Assembly (NCBI RefSeq): GCF_050920415.1
Contig: NZ_CP169309.1
DNA length: 64,000 bases
Source: Escherichia coli
GTDB lineage: Bacteria; Pseudomonadota; Gammaproteobacteria; Enterobacterales; Enterobacteriaceae
Reading direction: 5' to 3' (one strand)
Position 1 is the first letter of the stretch. Each line of letters begins with the position of its first letter. Made by a program: the position numbers. This document shows, one piece after another, positions 12,701-18,700 of the stretch.

Positions 12701-15700
12701 AGAAAGCAGCACAATTCGTGGCTTATTCTTTGGTTACTCTCATTCTGATATTGGTTTTGATCGCGGCGGTAAAGGCAATGTCGATAGCTATACCCTGGGG
12801 GCTTATGCCGGTTGGGAGCATCAGAACGGTGCCTATGTTGATGGGGTGGTGAAAGTTGACCGTTTTTCCAACACCATCCATGGCAAGATGAGTAATGGGG
12901 CAACAGCGTTTGGCGATTACAATAGTAACGGCGCGGGTGCTCATGTCGAGAGCGGGTTCCGTTGGGGGGAGGGGTTGTGGAATGTAAGGCCTTATCTGTC
13001 CTTTACCGGCTTTACCACTGATGGTCAGGACTATACGTTATCAAATGGTATGCGAGCGGATGTGGGAAATACCCGCATATTACGCGCTGAAGCGGGAACG
13101 GCGGTAAGCTATCACATGGACCTGCAAAACGGTACGACGCTGGAACCCTGGCTGAAAGCCGCCGTGCGTCAGGAATACGCCGATTCTAACCAGGTGAATG
13201 TTAATGACGACGGCAAATTTAATAATGACGTGGCTGGAACCCGTGGCGTTTATCAGGCTGGGATAAGGTCATCGTTTACCCCGACGTTAAGCGGTCATTT
13301 GTCAGTCAGCTATGGCAATGGCGCGGGGGTAGAATCACCGTGGAATACCCAGGCGGGTGTGGTCTGGACGTTCTGATAACAGAAAATAAACAGGCCGTAA
13401 TGTGTCGCGGTCTGTTTATCAAATTAATCGCAGATATAAAAAAAACCAACCGCAATAGGTTGGTTTTTCTTGGGATTTTTGGTCGCACGAGAGTAGTTTA
13501 ATTGAGTGTATAACTAAATGATTTTAAATAATATTCTTTATTCAACTTTTAAATCGTATAACCAAACGTATAACTAAAATAATTTGCTGAAAAAGTGTAC
13601 AATTTCAGCAATAATTGCCCTAGCGACTATCATCCTGCTCCCCGGATTTTTTCCGGTTAAATGTTAATCAGGCTGCTGGGCTTTGCCTGTTCGGTAGGTG
13701 TAATGATTATCGTAATACTTTTCCCCCAATGGGGTAAAAGCATCAACCGTAACGGAAGTCGTTATGGTTGCCTTGATGATCTGCGTGGTCATTATGACCA
13801 TTCAGCCAATGACCTTAATCAGAGCTTTTCGCTAAAAATGACGTTGGCCACTCGTCCGAAAAGCACAAAATCCCATCGATTTTTAATTAACGGTTAAACC
13901 GTCTTTTTGTCACGTCGTGTCACTGGTTGTCACTCTCCGTCACGATCTCCGATAGCCTGGCTGCAAATTAAACTACGAAAATTTCGTAGTTCTGACTTCT
14001 TTCAGATAGTCGGTTGCCTGGTTACACGAAAAAAATTACTTCCTGCGTTTATCCCGCTTTGTATGTCCGTGCTGAATGCCCCGCAGTGGATCTTCTTTTT
14101 TCAGGTCGATCCCCATGTCCGTTAGTGTTTTTGTGGCGGCGGTTCTTATGGCACAAATCAGGTCTCTTTCCGGTTCCCGGGTTATGGTTGCCTTCCGGAT
14201 ACATGCCGTTCGTCGTTCCGTTACATACTGACGCGCTTCATCACTTGCCGCCTGTTTCAGTAACTCACCCCAGCGATTAGCCGCCCGTCGCCATAAACCT
14301 TTCGCTTCCAGTTCTTCCGCTTTGTCATCATGCACCATAAGCATAATCCCATTGATACCTGTTAAATCTGAATGGTTGGTTTCCGTTCTTTTGATAATTT
14401 CCCTCATAGCTTATTGTATGACAGTACTGTCCCACAATAAGGAATCACACATGAGAATGACCAGGCACAAAAAACAGATTCTTGAACTTTACAAACCTGA
14501 GTATCGCGATTGGGTGCGGGTGGAGGCCGGAGATCCGCCTTTTGATGTTCGTGGTGTGACAGTGCTGCTCTATGGTTCCGAATATCAGCGATATCACATA
14601 GAGGCAACCCGACGAACGTTAAACGCTATGGTAAATGATGGGATCCTGTACCGCGTGAAAGTGCGCGAACCCCGCTTTGATGTGCGTATCGGTAGCGATG
14701 GCGCTCACTGTACGGTAATCCGGTACGGGCTGGGTAAATCAGATGATTAAATCACCAGAATGTAAATTTACATTCTGCCAGCCACCAGCTACAGAACGCA
14801 AATTTGCACTTTGCTGAAATATTAACGGGTTAGGCCAGAGTGCAAATTTGCATTATGCTTTAACTTCAGCAAGTTACCGCCGTAACCGCTCCGGCTTCTT
14901 CCACTGGTACGTTATTTTGGCTTTTTCCCTGTACGTCTGTATCCGGCGACGGTAGGCCAGCATTTCAAGAACGCGGATCCGTATGTCGCGCATATCCGCA
15001 TCATTAAGCTGGATACCATCACGGTGCATCACCTCAGCAACCACACGAACATAATTTTCTGCGGTCACGCTGTCCGGCTGCGTGGCCTGTTCGTCAGCCT
15101 GCTGGTTGATTCCGGCGACGCGGCGGATTAATCGCAGTAGTTCGGTTTCTGTCATTGTGCCCCCATCGCGCTGGTTAAGAAAACAAGCTCAGATTTTTTG
15201 TAAAGAATCTGTCACGCTAAAAGATGTCGAACAAAAAACAACCTTCTCCATCATCTTTTTTGCATCGATTACATTAAAAACAACAGGTTACATACATGAT
15301 GATGATGACGATAAAATCACAAAAATGCGCTTTTTTCCGCGCCCGCCCGCCCCGTGTTCATACCCACCCCACCAGGAGGACCCGCAAAAAAGGCGGCTGG
15401 TGCCGCCTTGTTGTCATAGTGAATCGGTACCGCCTGATTTGACCATACCGCGATAATCCAGAGCGGCCACACCAGCATCAATACGGACTTTCCAGGCCAC
15501 ACCGTCAACGATGAAACCTTCCTGCTGTTCAAGGTAAGGCTCGTCATTGCCATCAAGATAAGCCACCTCGATTGTGTCCGTTCCCTGTGCGGAAAGCATG
15601 TACCATTGTTTTTCGCTGATATCATCAAGGCGGGGATCGACGATAATATCCAGTAGTTTGTGATACGGGTTAAAGATCCCGCTGTTTTTATCTGCCCCGA

Positions 15701-18700
15701 AAGGTGCGGTTGAGTTAATCATCTGCAACGCGCGATCTTCCAGTGCTGCCGGAACTAAAAGGAATTTAGGCGCAATATTCAGCACTTCGCCATTTTTGTC
15801 CTTCTGTGTGCGCATCAGGTGACGTGCTGCACTAAGTCCCGGTGTTGTCAGTCCTGCTTCAATCAGGTTGCTGTGTTTTTTGTCAAACAGCGCTATTCCA
15901 TCAGAAAGTTTTACGTTGCCTGTAAGCACCAGATTAACCAGATTTCCCACCGTTCTTGATGCTGCACGGCCCATAGCCATTGGCACCGTTGATAACTGAT
16001 CAAGGTCATCATTGATTATCGCCTGGCGGGTAATGCTGAAAATATTCCCGTAAGTAGCCAGCGCGATGGGTTCACCGCGATCGCTGGTGGTGATGTATTT
16101 ATATTCTGCCCCTTCCGGCACTTTGTTTAACGTAGAGAAACCATTCAGACCAACGCGGCGGGCTTCACGAAAGTTTGAAAGGGAACCTTTTTTCGTCCAC
16201 TGGCGGAATGTTTCGCCGCTGTGCTCCCAGCCTGCAAGCACTGATTTTTCAGCACCACCAGCAAGGATATCGGTAAAATCGCTGCTGCTGTGGTTGAATG
16301 CCGCGTTTACTATCTGCGAGCGTGTTCCGTAGCTGCCCGTGCTTATACCACGATGGGTTAATGATGCCTGTGCCATATCGAAAAGGCTCATCATGGCGTA
16401 AGGATTACCGCGTTCGGCCCGTTCGTGACCAAGACGCGCATTAAGCCCCTGGCGCATTGCATCGCCGGTTATGTTGCCGTTATCCGTGTACGCGTAGTAA
16501 AGATTTGCGGGGGTGGTTTTATTTGTTGGCGTTGATTCTTTACCCATAGCGAGTAAAAGGCGTTCGCGTGCATTCTCAACGCTACATTCTGAATCAGCAA
16601 GACAACTTATAGCCAGGTCGTTATATCTTCCGTTGAACGTGCCAAACAATTCACGGATGCCGTTAAGTCGTTCCTGTTCGCCACTGCCAGTTTTCTGGCT
16701 GATCATGCTTTTAATTTTTTCCGGCATATTTGAAAAATCTCCGATTCGTTTTGATTCAATTCGGGCCATTGCTGTAATCGCGGGTATAACCTCATCTGCG
16801 AAGCCGTTAGCCTTACACTCATTGCCATCCATCCAGGTTTCCGCCTCCATCATGGCGGTGATTTCCTGTTTGCTCCTGCCCGTTCTTCCGGCGTAGGTTT
16901 CAGCCATCGTGTCGCCCAGCTTGTCCATCAGGTCAGCAAAGCGGCGAACGTCGCCCGACACTCCGGCAGTAACACCACGGGGGGCATGTATCATCATCAT
17001 TGCGTTTTCAGGCATAACGATGTGATCGCCACACATGGCAATAAACGAGGCCATAGAAGCCGCCATGCCTTCAATGTGTACAATTTTCTTTGCCGGATGA
17101 TTTTTCAGGGCGTTATAGATAGCCAGCCCTTCAAAGATGTCGCCACCAGGTGAATGGATGCGAAGATGGATTTCAGACGCATTACCACACGCGTTGATCT
17201 CGTCAGTAAGTGCCGATGCTTTTACACCGTACCCGCCGATCTCGTCATAAATGCGCACATAGACAACATCTGCCATAGCCTTAATGGAAAACCATGTTTT
17301 CATAGCCAGGCTCCTAACGTTGCCCTGTACCAGTATTCAACCGCGCTGCGTGTGATTTGTCCTTTCGTGGGTACCGGCATACCCGGGTGATTGTCTTTGA
17401 TGAACTGCTGATAGCGTTCGATCTTCTCCATAGTTCCGGCGTCTATGTGTACCGTGGCACTTTTATCCGGCTTTCTGGTGTTGTTCTCTGGCATAAATCC
17501 GCCTCCGTTTTGATTAACGGGCATCATTATTGATCGATAAAAGTAATAGATAAATCATTTTCTACCTGAAAATTAGATTATATTTTTTCTGATTATTCTC
17601 AGAGAGGCAAAGCCATTGACGCATTTTTGCTATTGAAGCAATATTAAGACTCGTCATCCTGGCGATAAAAACTCCTTTGTCGTGTAAAAGCGCCTCCGGT
17701 AACAGCAATCGAGGGCGCTTTTTTTTGCGCCTGTTTTTTTGTAAATGTTTTCGGGAACGCTCCAGTGATGAACAAAAAACAACCTGATTCGACACTAAAA
17801 ATTTTTATTCCTCAATATATCAATAACTTATAGTGGTGGTGATGGTGCCATAAAAATCAAAAAATGCGCCTTTTTCCGCGCCCGCCCGCCCCGTGGACAG
17901 GCCCACCAAGCCAGGAGTACCTACAAAAAAGCCGGATTGCTCCGGCTGTGTGCTCACTTCTTCGGTTATTCTCCAGCGCTTTTAACGTTGATGGTTGTAA
18001 CCTGTTCCGCTTCGGCAATCTCCCATTCTGTCAGCGTGGCAAAGTTTGCCGCCGCTGTGGTCATGAATGCGCTTATCAGGTCGGGATGTGCTTTCGCGTA
18101 TCCTTCCCCCGTGTTGCGGTCGATGATTTTTATCGCCACTCTCAGCCAGTGCTCTGTAAGGTCAATGGCGCGGTTATGCTGCTTCTTCTGATTATTAAGT
18201 TTTCCTGATGTGCGCATTTTTATTTTTACCCCCTCGTTTAAAAAGTTTTGAGTTGTGCCTCCCCTTGTCTACCTTATCTACCTTACTGGCCACCATGCCA
18301 GTAATGGCGCGGCTTTCAGTGGGGTAGAGTGCTTTTATCCACTATCTACCCCGTATCTACCTCCCTGTCTGATTCAGGTAAAATCAGGTAGAGAGGGTAG
18401 ATAGTAGGTAGACAGTAAAAAAAGGCTGTCTACCCAAGTTAATGTACTGAATTAAATGTATTTTTCTTTACTCAGGTAGACAGGGTAGACAGCCATTGCA
18501 ACAAATTATAAAAACGCGTCGCAATCGTCTGTTGTTATTGCGTTAGTCTGCGTTACTCCTTTAACTTTCCGCGTAATATATTCATGTCCGTAAACTTTCG
18601 CGGCTGGCTTCATAGCCTTGCCAAAGTCATTTACGTTTAGCGGTTTGCTCCTGCCTGCGTACGCCATAAACGCCAGATAGACGCGGTAAAGGCTGTTTCT

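What the first reader, a model, noticed from the sequence alone, without database searches (positions are those of the whole stretch)
15414..17303. Prohead protease fused to major capsid protein as the only structural gene
The 629-aa ORF has a ClpP-like serine protease N-terminus and an HK97-like capsid C-terminus in one polypeptide, preceded by a strong RBS and followed by a terminator. No portal, terminase or scaffold ORF is visible anywhere in the island, so the element would have to borrow these from a helper. Alternatively the product could remodel helper capsids or form an encapsulin-like shell. Either would be an unusual piracy strategy.
Basis: partly seen in the sequence, partly recalled or inferred. 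Interest (0 to 1): 0.8.

Follow-up and report, generated by a model that had tools for sequence, protein, structure and literature searches.

The report
Phage satellite carrying one capsid polyprotein
A 10.8-kb E. coli phage satellite (a PICI) carries, between two copies of its helper phage's DNA-packaging site, a diverged but well-preserved copy of the helper's fused protease-scaffold-capsid gene; both the fused gene and satellites with a lone capsid gene are already known, so this is a tidy new example, not a new strategy.

Summary
ORF 15414-17303 (minus strand, 629 aa) is a single intact protein with a ClpP-fold protease (Ser83/His106 conserved), a helical scaffold-like middle and an HK97-fold capsid domain. 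It has an AGGAG ribosome-binding site and a terminator. It is the only gene in the island that matches any phage head, neck or tail protein.

Neither feature is unusual. The fusion is a curated family (NCBIfam NF045540, PHROG 133) and is the normal head gene of lambdoid phages such as mEp460, cdtI, VT1-Sakai and several Stx2 phages. The island (13479-24305, 10,827 bp) is a Gram-negative PICI of the EcCICFT073 type, with integrase at tRNA-Pro, AlpA, primase and an iteron origin. Published work says 21 of 29 reference PICIs of this type carry a capsid gene.

New here: the gene is flanked by two copies of the helper's cos packaging site, about 95% identical to Stx-phage cos, which identifies the helper family. 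The satellite copy is only about 54% identical to helper copies yet under strong purifying selection (dN/dS about 0.09). A sibling island lies inside its helper's terminase gene.

What the capsid copy does is untested. Most likely it joins or forms the shells that package the satellite.

The parts
13479..13492 (.). attL: imperfect direct repeat (TGGTCGCACGAGAG) of the 3' end of tRNA-Pro; left end of the island
   Evidence: Read directly from the sequence; the island is 10,827 bp.
14036..14338 (-). PerC-family regulator, a typical accessory gene of Gram-negative PICIs
   Evidence: PHROG transcriptional-activator families; PGAP name in L001; PerC is described in PICIs in PMC11773190.
14874..15155 (-). 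93-aa ORF of unknown function, the first gene after cos copy A
   Evidence: PHROG 1561, unknown function; 76% identical to the ORF that follows TerS in sibling PICIs; no PDB or NCBIfam match.
15160..15400 (-). cos copy A: a GGGTCCT motif (cosQ-like), the core CACGGGGCGGGCGGGCGCGG (cosN-like) and a helper-like TerS-proximal (cosB-like) side
   Evidence: 92-97.5% identical to the non-coding site just upstream of TerS in Stx2 phages, VT1-Sakai and CP-1639, and 80% to mEp460. 95% identical over 119 nt to the Stx2_12E129 site. Homologous to lambda cosQ-cosN with the spacing conserved.
15386..15407 (-). Intrinsic terminator hairpin directly after the fusion gene's stop codon
   Evidence: Fold of -14.8 kcal/mol followed by U6.
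15414..17303 (-). Protease-scaffold-major capsid polyprotein gene (629 aa). ClpP-like protease is about residues 1-175 (16779-17303); the scaffold-like helical region is about residues 193-330 (16314-16727); the HK97-fold capsid domain is about residues 331-629 (15417-16313)
   Evidence: Purifying selection in all three parts.
16725..16745 (-). Conserved internal ATG (Met193) with an upstream SD-like GGAG; a candidate nested start for a scaffold-MCP product without the protease
   Evidence: ATG plus SD-like motif present in all six satellite and phage genes although the encoded residues differ. Stand-alone homologs P0135 and P0260 begin at the aligned Met-Pro. Inferred, not shown.
17300..17527 (-). 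Small ORF (64-75 aa) translationally coupled to the fusion gene; unknown function; travels with this capsid cassette
   Evidence: PHROG 4934, unknown function; no Pfam, NCBIfam or PDB match; not similar to the gpW-like adaptor or to the small ORF of the lambda-type cassette. Present upstream of the fusion in all sibling PICIs.
17770..17947 (-). cos copy B: the same cosN-like core, a degenerate cosQ-like motif (AGGTACT), a divergent cosB-like side, and a terminator-like hairpin at its 5' end
   Evidence: Repeat family D1. The 36-nt core is 100% identical to the Stx2 phage core, and the copy is 89-96% conserved in sibling PICIs. The downstream side is 66-74% identical to all comparators.
17966..18217 (-). 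83-aa ORF of unknown function (PHROG 1231); in sibling PICIs it precedes an SSB gene that this island lacks
18266..18491 (.). Replication origin: nine GGTAGAYA iterons directly 3' of the primase gene
   Evidence: 13 matches in the window against 1.5 expected by chance, nine of them clustered here. The position matches the PICI origin described in PMC6092414.
18506..20254 (-). Primase/replication protein (582 aa)
   Evidence: PHROG 864 DNA primase, 7.5e-170. Sibling orthologs carry the D5_N, DUF5906 and Pox_D5 domains.
22109..22315 (-). AlpA-family regulator
   Evidence: Pfam PF05930, 5.5e-8.
22830..24089 (-). Tyrosine integrase
   Evidence: PHROG 1 integrase, 1.6e-71; PGAP annotation.
24290..24366 (-). 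tRNA-Pro(GGG); its 3' end (24290-24304) is attR
   Evidence: ARAGORN; sequence read.

Best explanation
Shown. The gene belongs to a 10.8-kb cos-type phage-inducible chromosomal island (PICI) of the Gram-negative EcCICFT073 kind, integrated at tRNA-Pro between yejO and yejM of E. coli. The island has its own integrase, AlpA regulator, primase and iteron origin. It has no terminase, portal, neck, tail or lysis genes. Its only morphogenesis gene is a protease-scaffold-major capsid polyprotein of the family that serves as the normal head gene of lambdoid phages with mEp460/Stx-type heads. The gene sits in a conserved cassette of about 2.5 kb with the order cos, small ORF, polyprotein, cos. The two cos copies match the cos site of exactly those phages.

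Inferred. A helper prophage of that type is induced. The island then excises and replicates as concatemers. The helper's own terminase recognises the island's cos sites and packages the island into heads that receive helper tails. Copy A keeps the helper-like terminase-binding side, so no Rpp-type adaptor is needed.

Inferred with lower confidence. The satellite polyprotein is made late and assembles on helper portals, alone or mixed with helper subunits. Its own protease domain then removes the protease and scaffold parts. This gives the satellite shells that favour its DNA, possibly smaller ones, as with SaPIbov5 Ccm and as proposed for PmCI172. An internal start at Met193 may supply most subunits without the protease, as with lambda C/Nu3.
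For: Protein identity: Pfam, NCBIfam and PHROG matches. Catalytic Ser83 and His106 are invariant or nearly so across 72 homologs. ClpP and HK97 folds are confirmed on confident models.

PICI identity: att repeats, integrase and primase, AlpA, iteron origin, and no other structural gene.

Helper identity: both cos copies share a core identical to the site upstream of TerS in Stx2 phages, VT1-Sakai, CP-1639 and mEp460. That site is homologous to lambda cosQ-cosN. The same phages hold the closest fusion homologs, next to their portal genes. The 91% allele lies in a PICI inserted in the TerL gene of a prophage whose head gene is the phage-type fusion. 59 of the 60 best genomes carrying the satellite allele hold at least one further fusion homolog, against about 40% of all E. 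coli genomes holding any.

The gene is functional and specialised: dN/dS is 0.08-0.13 in the protease, scaffold and capsid parts at dS of about 0.5. It is only 54% identical to the helper copy even when embedded in that helper. The cassette is conserved in islands with three different integration sites.

Precedents: EcCICFT073 has two functional cos sites, no TerS and a capsid homolog (PMC6092414). SaPIbov5 Ccm is a capsid homolog that redirects capsid size (PMC6893505).
Against: No experiment bears on this island. In EcCICFT073, deleting the capsid or decoration homolog did not relieve interference with lambda, the capsid gene is reported as not required for transfer, and the island was packaged in full-size heads. 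So a capsid homolog in a PICI need not build or resize capsids. The co-occurrence with helper-type prophages is confounded by phylogeny, because nearly all carriers are prophage-rich STEC. The cos assignment rests on homology and position, not on mapped DNA ends. A sibling island with a lambda-type capsid cassette carries a similar cos, so capsid type and cos type are not strictly linked. This copy of the island lacks the SSB gene of its siblings and has a truncated Icd-like gene, so it may be partly decayed.
Confidence: 0.55

Rival explanations
1. The capsid gene is a captured helper late gene that rides along in the PICI 'late zone' without a specialised role. It would be at most a redundant back-up copy, as suggested for helper-embedded PICIs.
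For: EcCICFT073 tolerates deletion of its capsid homolog. The slot is a swappable cassette: a sibling island with the same integrase and site carries a lambda-type MCP, decoration and connector set instead. PMC10111431 proposes capture of nearby helper late genes.
Against: The satellite copy is only 53-55% identical to any phage copy, including the helper it is embedded in, while the cos sites are about 95% identical. So it is not a recent capture. dN/dS of 0.08-0.13 across all three domains at dS of about 0.5 shows long-term selection within satellites. In the embedded case the interrupted helper gene is TerL, not the capsid gene, so it cannot be a back-up for the disrupted gene.
Confidence: 0.2
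2. The polyprotein is mainly an interference weapon. As a diverged subunit with an attached protease, it would co-assemble with or prematurely process helper procapsids and poison helper head assembly, protecting the host population more than serving satellite packaging.
For: PICIs generally interfere with their helpers, and Ccm deletion raises phi12 titres by 10^6-10^7. The satellite copy keeps an intact catalytic Ser/His pair and is too diverged from the helper copy to be assumed fully compatible. No Rpp-type interference factor was found in this island.
Against: A pure poison would not need the capsid, scaffold and protease parts all conserved at equal strength. The satellite needs working heads for its own transfer. 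No evidence for interference exists for this island.
Confidence: 0.2
3. The region is a decayed prophage remnant, not a satellite, and the fusion gene is simply what is left of a head module.
For: The island lacks SSB and has a truncated Icd-like gene relative to its siblings.
Against: The gene order int, alpA, primase, ori, cassette, perC, the size, and intact att repeats are those of PICIs. The same compact architecture recurs in hundreds of genomes at three different sites, including inside a helper prophage. A remnant would not keep two cos copies flanking one selected gene.
Confidence: 0.03
4. The product forms an encapsulin-like nanocompartment for the cell, unrelated to phage transfer.
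For: The C-terminal model matches encapsulin shells about as well as it matches phage capsids.
Against: Encapsulins and capsids share the HK97 fold, so the fold cannot discriminate between them. No cargo enzyme gene is adjacent. The protein carries a prohead protease and scaffold region, lies between phage cos sites, and its nearest relatives are phage head genes next to portal genes.
Confidence: 0.02
5. The single ORF is an artefact: two adjacent genes (protease and capsid) joined by a frameshift or a sequencing error.
For: Some distant relatives have the scaffold-capsid part as a separate gene.
Against: All satellite alleles (100%, 91% and 62-64% groups) and the phage copies are single ORFs of 628-680 aa. 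A curated family model covers the full length. Most of the best 150 representatives at 50% clustering are 640-750 aa.
Confidence: 0.01

Closest known systems
EcCICFT073 and related Gram-negative cos-type PICIs (Fillol-Salom et al. 2018, PMC6092414; 2019, PMC6739421)
   Same: Same gene order and orientation (int, alpA, primase, ori, packaging/late zone, perC). About 10-11 kb. No TerS. Two cos sites whose cosN matches the helper. A capsid-protein homolog as the main late gene. Lambdoid cos helpers.
   Different: The capsid cassette here is the ClpP-protease-scaffold-MCP polyprotein, not a lambda E-type MCP plus D-type decoration protein. No Rpp homolog was detected. cos copy A keeps the helper-like terminase-binding side, whereas EcCICFT073 has its own cosB read by Rpp-TerS. 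The inferred helpers are mEp460/Stx-type phages, not lambda or phi80.
Head polyprotein of mEp460, cdtI, VT1-Sakai and Stx2 lambdoid phages (NCBIfam NF045540 'ClpP-like prohead protease/major capsid protein fusion protein'; PHROG 133)
   Same: Collinear over the full length, with the same three parts, the same catalytic Ser/His, the same conserved Met-Pro at the protease | scaffold boundary, and a terminator directly after the gene.
   Different: 51-55% amino-acid identity. The satellite copies lack a Pro/Ala-rich linker of about 35 aa after the protease part. The satellite gene is not preceded by terminase, adaptor and portal genes or followed by decoration and neck genes.
Helper-embedded PICIs (HE-PICIs; PMC10111431)
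   Same: The 91% allele of this gene sits in a PICI inserted in the terminase large-subunit gene of a lambdoid prophage. That is one of the late-gene targets the paper reports, and the paper notes that capsid genes are the commonest late gene in such PICIs.
   Different: The island in this window is free-standing at tRNA-Pro with a different integrase. The paper's model element carries a lambda E-type capsid gene.
SaPIbov5 Ccm (cos-packaged staphylococcal PICI with a capsid-protein homolog; reviewed in PMC6893505)
   Same: A cos-site satellite without its own terminase that encodes an HK97-fold homolog of its helper's capsid protein. This is the working precedent for a satellite capsid homolog that enters capsids and redirects their size.
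   Different: Ccm is 23% identical to the helper capsid protein and has no fused protease or scaffold. Size redirection is demonstrated for Ccm and untested here. The hosts and helpers are unrelated.
Capsid-forming PICIs (cfPICIs, e.g. EcCIEDL933)
   Same: A satellite that encodes its own capsid protein and protease.
   Different: cfPICIs also encode TerS, TerL, portal, HNH and head-tail connectors and steal only tails. None of these genes is present here.

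Membership tests
ClpP-like prohead protease/major capsid fusion family (NCBIfam NF045540, PHROG 133) | Whole-protein score above the curated cutoff and a full-length match | tested here: met
   889.8 bits against a cutoff of 475. PHROG 133 matches at 5.6e-280; its best stretch covers residues 205-625, at the end of the profile.
ClpP-like prohead protease/major capsid fusion family (NCBIfam NF045540, PHROG 133) | N-terminal ClpP-fold serine protease with catalytic Ser and His | tested here: met
   Pfam CLP_protease 7e-33. Ser83 and His106 align with the ClpP Ser/His and are invariant among close relatives, and at least 90% conserved in 72 homologs. 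Fold match TM 0.72-0.82. The acidic third residue is Glu in all satellite and phage copies.
ClpP-like prohead protease/major capsid fusion family (NCBIfam NF045540, PHROG 133) | C-terminal HK97-fold major capsid domain | tested here: met
   Phage_capsid_4 8e-55. The model has pLDDT 93 and matches HK97-fold capsids at probability 1.00.
ClpP-like prohead protease/major capsid fusion family (NCBIfam NF045540, PHROG 133) | Assembles into procapsids and is self-processed | not testable with these tools
   Needs expression, electron microscopy and protein chemistry.
Gram-negative PICI (EcCICFT073 type) | Integrase at one end, site-specific integration with att direct repeats | tested here: met
   Integrase PHROG 1, 1.6e-71. 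tRNA-Pro. Its 3' end is repeated at 13479-13492.
Gram-negative PICI (EcCICFT073 type) | AlpA regulator next to int, with genes co-oriented | tested here: met
   PF05930, 5.5e-8. Nearly all island genes are on the minus strand.
Gram-negative PICI (EcCICFT073 type) | Own primase/replication gene with the origin immediately 3' of it | tested here: met
   Primase PHROG 864, 7.5e-170. Nine iterons at 18266-18491.
Gram-negative PICI (EcCICFT073 type) | Size about 10-20 kb, without lysis or tail genes and without most head genes | tested here: met
   10,827 bp. Only the fusion matches the helper morphogenesis proteins queried (TerS, TerL, adaptor, portal, decoration, tail); lysis genes were not queried directly, and the PHROG and NCBIfam scans of the other ORFs return no lysis or structural family.
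Gram-negative PICI (EcCICFT073 type) | Helper-type cos site(s) in place of a terminase small subunit | tested here: met
   Two cos copies match phage cos. No TerS in the island.
Gram-negative PICI (EcCICFT073 type) | Rpp protein that redirects the helper TerS to a PICI-specific cosB | tested here: not met
   None of the four small ORFs tested matches the solved RppC by sequence, and the only ORF near the 144-153 aa of Rpp proteins is the 142-aa maximal form (14322..14750) of the tested 99-aa ORF. Rpp defines a subgroup, not PICIs as a whole. Sibling PICIs carry a TerS homolog instead.
Gram-negative PICI (EcCICFT073 type) | Helper-dependent induction, packaging and high-frequency transfer | not testable with these tools
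   Experimental. Only indirect support here: cos identity, the helper-embedded sibling, and co-occurrence.
Capsid-forming PICI (cfPICI) | Own TerL, TerS, portal, HNH and head-tail connector genes | tested here: not met
   tblastn negative for TerS, TerL, portal and adaptor. No such PHROG or NCBIfam family among the island ORFs.
P4-like satellite | Sid, Psu and Delta capsid-redirection and transactivation genes; P2-type cos | tested here: not met
   No such PHROG families among the island ORFs. The cos is lambda-like, not P2-like. Only the primase is of the broad P4-alpha/D5 type.
Encapsulin system | Shell gene paired with a cargo enzyme carrying a targeting peptide; no phage packaging context | tested here: not met
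   No cargo-like gene is adjacent. The gene is fused to a prohead protease and flanked by cos sites.
Ccm-type capsid-homolog size redirection (SaPIbov5) | Satellite-encoded HK97-fold homolog of the helper capsid protein in a cos-packaged satellite | tested here: met
   for the homolog; for cos.
Ccm-type capsid-homolog size redirection (SaPIbov5) | Production of small, satellite-sized capsids that contain the homolog | not testable with these tools
   Needs electron microscopy, packaged-DNA sizing and mass spectrometry.

The most novel reading that the evidence does not exclude
The satellite polyprotein carries protease, scaffold and shell in one chain. It may therefore build complete satellite-specific procapsids on stolen helper portals, possibly of a lower T number suited to about 10.8 kb. 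The helper terminase would fill them through the duplicated cos sites. That would be an intermediate stage between classical PICIs, which steal whole heads, and capsid-forming PICIs, which steal only tails. It would also give a function to the capsid genes found in most Gram-negative PICIs.
Probability: 0.3. Interest if true: 0.65.

Novelty: new member of a known kind. Interest (0 to 1): 0.35.

Why it matters
Most Gram-negative PICIs carry a capsid-protein homolog, and nobody knows what it does. In the one model tested, with lambda as helper, it was dispensable. This subfamily makes the question easier to test for four reasons:

- The homolog is a self-contained protease-scaffold-shell polyprotein.
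- It is under strong purifying selection.
- It is far diverged from the helper's copy even when the satellite sits inside that helper.
- Its natural helper family can be read from the cos sites.

The helpers are lambdoid prophages of Shiga-toxin-producing E. coli, including Stx-converting phages. These satellites could therefore affect production and spread of Stx phages. Beyond that, the finding is an ordinary, well-annotated member of known families.

Tried and rejected
1. A search for lambda cosN (GGGCGGCGACCT) in the window gave only chance-level matches. The real cos core is a diverged relative, found through the direct repeat.
2. My first impression that cos copy B resembles the mEp460 cosB side was not borne out. 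It is 66-74% identical to everything.
3. Rpp search: the 75-, 83-, 93- and 99-aa ORFs, and the small ORF of the lambda-type cassette, have no credible PDB sequence match. The SAKe hits of the 99-aa ORF are designed repeat proteins and were judged spurious.
4. The small ORF coupled to the fusion is not a gpW-like adaptor and has no Pfam match.
5. I tried to fetch EcCICFT073 by guessing coordinates in CFT073. That returned the lambda-like prophage at icd instead, so the comparison with EcCICFT073 rests on the papers.
6. A fold search with the full-length model returned only ClpP hits. The capsid part needed a separate model.
7. Literature searches for a functional study of the fused head protein, or of PICI capsid homologs after 2019, found nothing specific.
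8. A fuzzy-regex cos scan timed out and was replaced by blastn-short.

Full report
**1. The observation**

The ORF is real. It runs 15414..17303 on the minus strand and encodes 629 aa.

- **Domains.** Pfam places a Clp protease domain at residues 41-173 (7e-33) and a phage capsid domain (Phage_capsid_4) at 330-623 (8e-55).
- **Catalytic residues.** Alignment with E. coli ClpP and with relatives shows the catalytic Ser (Ser83) and His (His106) are invariant. The acidic third position is Glu in satellite and phage copies alike. Both residues are at least 90% conserved in 72 diverse homologs.
- **Structure.** The full-length AlphaFold model is confident (pLDDT 89.1). Its N-terminal part matches solved ClpP structures (TM 0.72-0.82 normalised to the target). 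A separate model of residues 276-629 (pLDDT 93, pTM 0.88) matches HK97-fold capsid proteins (HK97, D3, T5, T1, P2/P4 gpN, 80alpha/SaPI1, JBD30) and encapsulins at probability 1.00.
- **Middle region.** Residues from about 185 to 337 are helical, with two low-confidence linkers at 204-206 and 264-275.
- **Signals.** The RBS is AGGAG, 7 nt, then ATG, and the start overlaps the stop of a small upstream ORF as ATGA. A GC hairpin with a U6 tail follows the stop codon (-14.8 kcal/mol).

**2. The island**

The window is E. coli chromosome. Between yejO and tRNA-Pro(GGG) lies a 10,827-bp insertion. It is bounded by the 3' end of the tRNA (TGGTCGGCACGAGAG, 24290-24304) and an imperfect copy at 13479-13492. 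Reading along the minus strand from the tRNA, it contains:

- an integrase (PHROG 1, 1.6e-71);
- an AlpA regulator (PF05930, 5.5e-8);
- an Icd-like remnant and a DUF4222 protein;
- a 582-aa primase (PHROG 864, 7.5e-170);
- nine GGTAGAYA iterons directly 3' of the primase;
- an 83-aa ORF, a small ORF coupled to the fusion gene, the fusion gene, and a 93-aa ORF;
- a 99-aa ORF on the other strand;
- a PerC-family regulator.

This is the published layout of Gram-negative PICIs of the EcCICFT073 type (PMC6092414; PMC11773190).

I ran tblastn with the mEp460 TerS, TerL, adaptor, portal, decoration and tail proteins, and with a lambda-type MCP/decoration/connector set, against all six frames of the island. 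Only the fusion hit. So the fusion is the only recognisable structural gene. Four small ORFs remain without function.

**3. The fusion is a known protein family**

It scores 889.8 bits against NCBIfam NF045540, 'ClpP-like prohead protease/major capsid protein fusion protein', whose cutoff is 475. It matches PHROG 133 at 5.6e-280, the best stretch covering residues 205-625. PGAP already gives it that name in the matching genomes.

In sequenced phages the closest relatives are 50-52% identical over 99% of the length. They are lambdoid phages: mEp460, cdtI, Ayreon, VT1-Sakai, CP-1639, 1720a-02 and several Stx2 phages. There the gene follows TerS, TerL, a gpW-like adaptor and the portal, and it precedes a terminator and a decoration gene. 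So it is the ordinary head gene of that head type.

An exhaustive search of 1.84 billion cluster representatives found 5,677 relatives at E below 1e-30. Most of the best 150 are 640-750 aa. The frameshift-pseudogene idea is therefore refuted.

**4. A lone capsid gene in a PICI is also known**

[quoted passage not shown] EcCICFT073 carries a capsid homolog (c1499) and a decoration homolog (c1500). Deleting them did not restore lambda plaques, and the island was packaged in full-size heads.

A sibling island in strain GB089 has the same integrase, site and backbone but carries a lambda-type MCP, decoration and connector set in the same slot. The slot therefore holds a swappable cassette. The fusion is the version that corresponds to mEp460/Stx-type heads.

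**5. What the tools added: cos sites and the helper**

A 98-nt direct repeat lies immediately 3' of the fusion gene (copy A, 15311-15408). It recurs 3' of the 83-aa ORF (copy B, 17850-17947).

- **Match to phage cos.** Copy A matches a non-coding site at 92-97.5% identity in exactly the phages that hold the closest fusion homologs, and at 80% in mEp460. That site lies just upstream of TerS.
- **Extent of the match.** The alignment extends for about 200 nt towards the TerS start.
- **Homology to lambda cos.** Lambda reads ACGGGTCCT, 23 nt, then ACG|GGGCGGCGACCT. The island reads GCGGGTCCT, 24 nt, then ACG GGGCGGGCGGGC. The lambda record begins at its left cohesive end. That GGGTCCT is lambda cosQ is my recollection of the lambda literature.
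- **Differences between the copies.** Copy A is 95% identical over 119 nt to the Stx2_12E129 site. Copy B shares a 36-nt core that is 100% identical to it. Copy B has a degenerate GGGTCCT (AGGTACT) and a divergent TerS-proximal side, 66-74% identical to all comparators.
- **Precedent.** EcCICFT073 likewise has no TerS and two functional cos sites whose cosN matches its inducing phage.
- **No Rpp.** EcCICFT073's cosB differs from the phage's and is read by an Rpp-TerS heterodimer. Here no Rpp homolog was found, and copy A keeps the helper-like side. I infer that the helper terminase recognises it directly.

**6. Sibling islands**

- **Same cassette at another site.** The identical or near-identical allele occurs in PICIs at the clpS/cspD site with another integrase.
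- **Helper-embedded sibling.** The 91% allele lies in a PICI followed directly by the 3' part of a TerL gene (residues 326-701), then adaptor, portal, a 680-aa phage-type fusion, cement protein and tail genes. That is a helper-embedded PICI of the kind described in PMC10111431, and it physically links this capsid cassette to helpers with the phage-type fusion.
- **Conserved cassette.** All islands with this allele group have the arrangement cos B-type, small ORF, fusion, cos A-type. Copy B is 89-96% conserved between them.
- **A second allele group with TerS.** A 62-64% allele group is listed in 520 blocks of the collection. It sits in free-standing PICIs in which the fusion is followed by one cos core and a DUF1441 protein. 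That protein is 65% identical to mEp460 TerS. Related PICIs therefore differ in how much of the packaging machinery they carry.

**7. The satellite copy is maintained, not decaying**

- **Selection.** Between the window allele and the 91% allele, dN/dS is 0.134 in the protease part, 0.086 in the scaffold part and 0.077 in the capsid part, at dS of about 0.5. Between two 62%-group alleles the whole-gene value is 0.08. Between phage copies it is 0.18.
- **Divergence.** Satellite copies are 53-55% identical to phage copies, and 54% to the copy in the very helper that hosts the embedded sibling. The cos sites, by contrast, are about 95% identical. The capsid gene is therefore an old, specialised satellite gene, while cos is kept matched to the helper.
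- **Linker.** The only gross difference is a Pro/Ala-rich linker of about 35 aa present in the phage copies and absent from the satellite copies.

**8. Distribution**

The allele at 95% identity or better occurs in about 140 of 5,426 complete E. coli genomes. Nearly all are STEC serotypes. Of the 60 best, 59 hold at least one further fusion homolog, against about 40% of all genomes holding any. This fits the presence of helper prophages but is confounded by phylogeny. The helper-type cos is present in 665 genomes. No helper prophage lies in the window itself.

**9. Domain junction**

At residue 193 all six satellite and phage genes examined have an ATG preceded by an SD-like motif and an A/T-rich spacer, although the encoded residues differ. 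Stand-alone homologs of 443 and 468 aa begin exactly at the aligned Met-Pro, and Pro194 is at least 90% conserved. The protease | scaffold-capsid boundary is therefore at 192/193. A nested product without the protease, as with lambda C/Nu3, is plausible but untested. The maturation cleavage site cannot be located from sequence.

**10. Mechanism and verdict**

Shown: a cos-type PICI whose single morphogenesis gene is a selected, diverged copy of the helper family's head polyprotein, flanked by helper-type cos sites.

Inferred: the helper terminase, portal, neck, tail and lysis functions are borrowed, and packaging starts at the island's cos.

Inferred with lower confidence: the polyprotein enters or forms the shells used by the satellite, possibly changing their size, by analogy with SaPIbov5 Ccm and the proposal for PmCI172. 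The EcCICFT073 knock-out data keep the passenger-gene and interference rivals alive.

Its reading is right about helper dependence but wrong about rarity. The element is a new member of a known kind, of modest interest. Its main value is as a clean test case for what PICI capsid homologs do.

Noticed in passing
window 15160-15408 and 17700-17947: Two direct copies of a lambda-like cos site bracket the small ORF and the capsid gene. Copy A has an intact GGGTCCT motif and a helper-like TerS-proximal side. Copy B has AGGTACT and a divergent side, yet it is 89-96% conserved in sibling islands. In the packaging direction the cos-to-cos distances are 2.54 kb and 8.29 kb, so several packaged lengths are possible. 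Why two copies are kept is unexplained.
   Followed up: partly
window 16725-16745 (codon 193 of the fusion gene): A conserved internal ATG with an SD-like motif is present in satellite and phage copies. Stand-alone scaffold-capsid homologs (P0135, P0260) start at exactly this Met-Pro. This suggests a nested scaffold-MCP product, analogous to lambda C/Nu3.
   Followed up: partly
L009 9001-16580 (also L010, L011): A PICI carrying the 91% allele is inserted in the TerL gene of a lambdoid prophage, so a satellite-type and a helper-type fusion gene lie about 3.7 kb apart at only 54% identity.
   Followed up: yes
L012 10915-11940 (also L007, L013-L015): PICIs with the 62-64% allele carry one cos core, a TerS homolog (DUF1441, 65% identical to mEp460 TerS) and the same 93-aa ORF after the fusion gene. 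Related satellites therefore differ in whether they bring their own small terminase.
   Followed up: partly
L008 4418-6453: An island with the same integrase and tRNA-Pro site carries a lambda-type MCP, decoration protein and head-tail connector in place of the fusion. Its cos resembles the Stx-type cos (80% on the TerS-proximal side). Capsid type and cos type are therefore not strictly linked.
   Followed up: partly
window 17300-17527: The small ORF translationally coupled to the fusion (PHROG 4934) has no detectable homology to anything of known function. It accompanies the fusion in every PICI examined but is absent from the phages, where the portal gene occupies that position.
   Followed up: partly
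window 14792-14876: Two tandem 41-nt units, each holding a palindrome around GCAAATTTGC, lie just upstream of the 93-aa ORF. They look like operator sites.
   Followed up: no
window 13555-13590 and 24135-24170: Repeated CGTATAAC(C/T)AAACGTATAACTAAAA motifs lie just inside both ends of the island. They may be integrase arm-type binding sites.
   Followed up: no
window 21001-21252 and 17966-18505: Compared with its siblings, this island has a truncated Icd-like gene (PGAP marks it incomplete) and lacks the SSB gene that normally follows the 83-aa ORF. This copy may be partly decayed.
   Followed up: no
fusion protein, after about residue 203: The phage copies carry a Pro/Ala-rich linker of about 35 aa between the protease/boundary region and the scaffold helices. 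All satellite copies lack it.
   Followed up: partly
window 10782-13376: The yejO autotransporter gene next to the island is annotated as a pseudogene (frameshift or internal stop) in the closest genomes.
   Followed up: no
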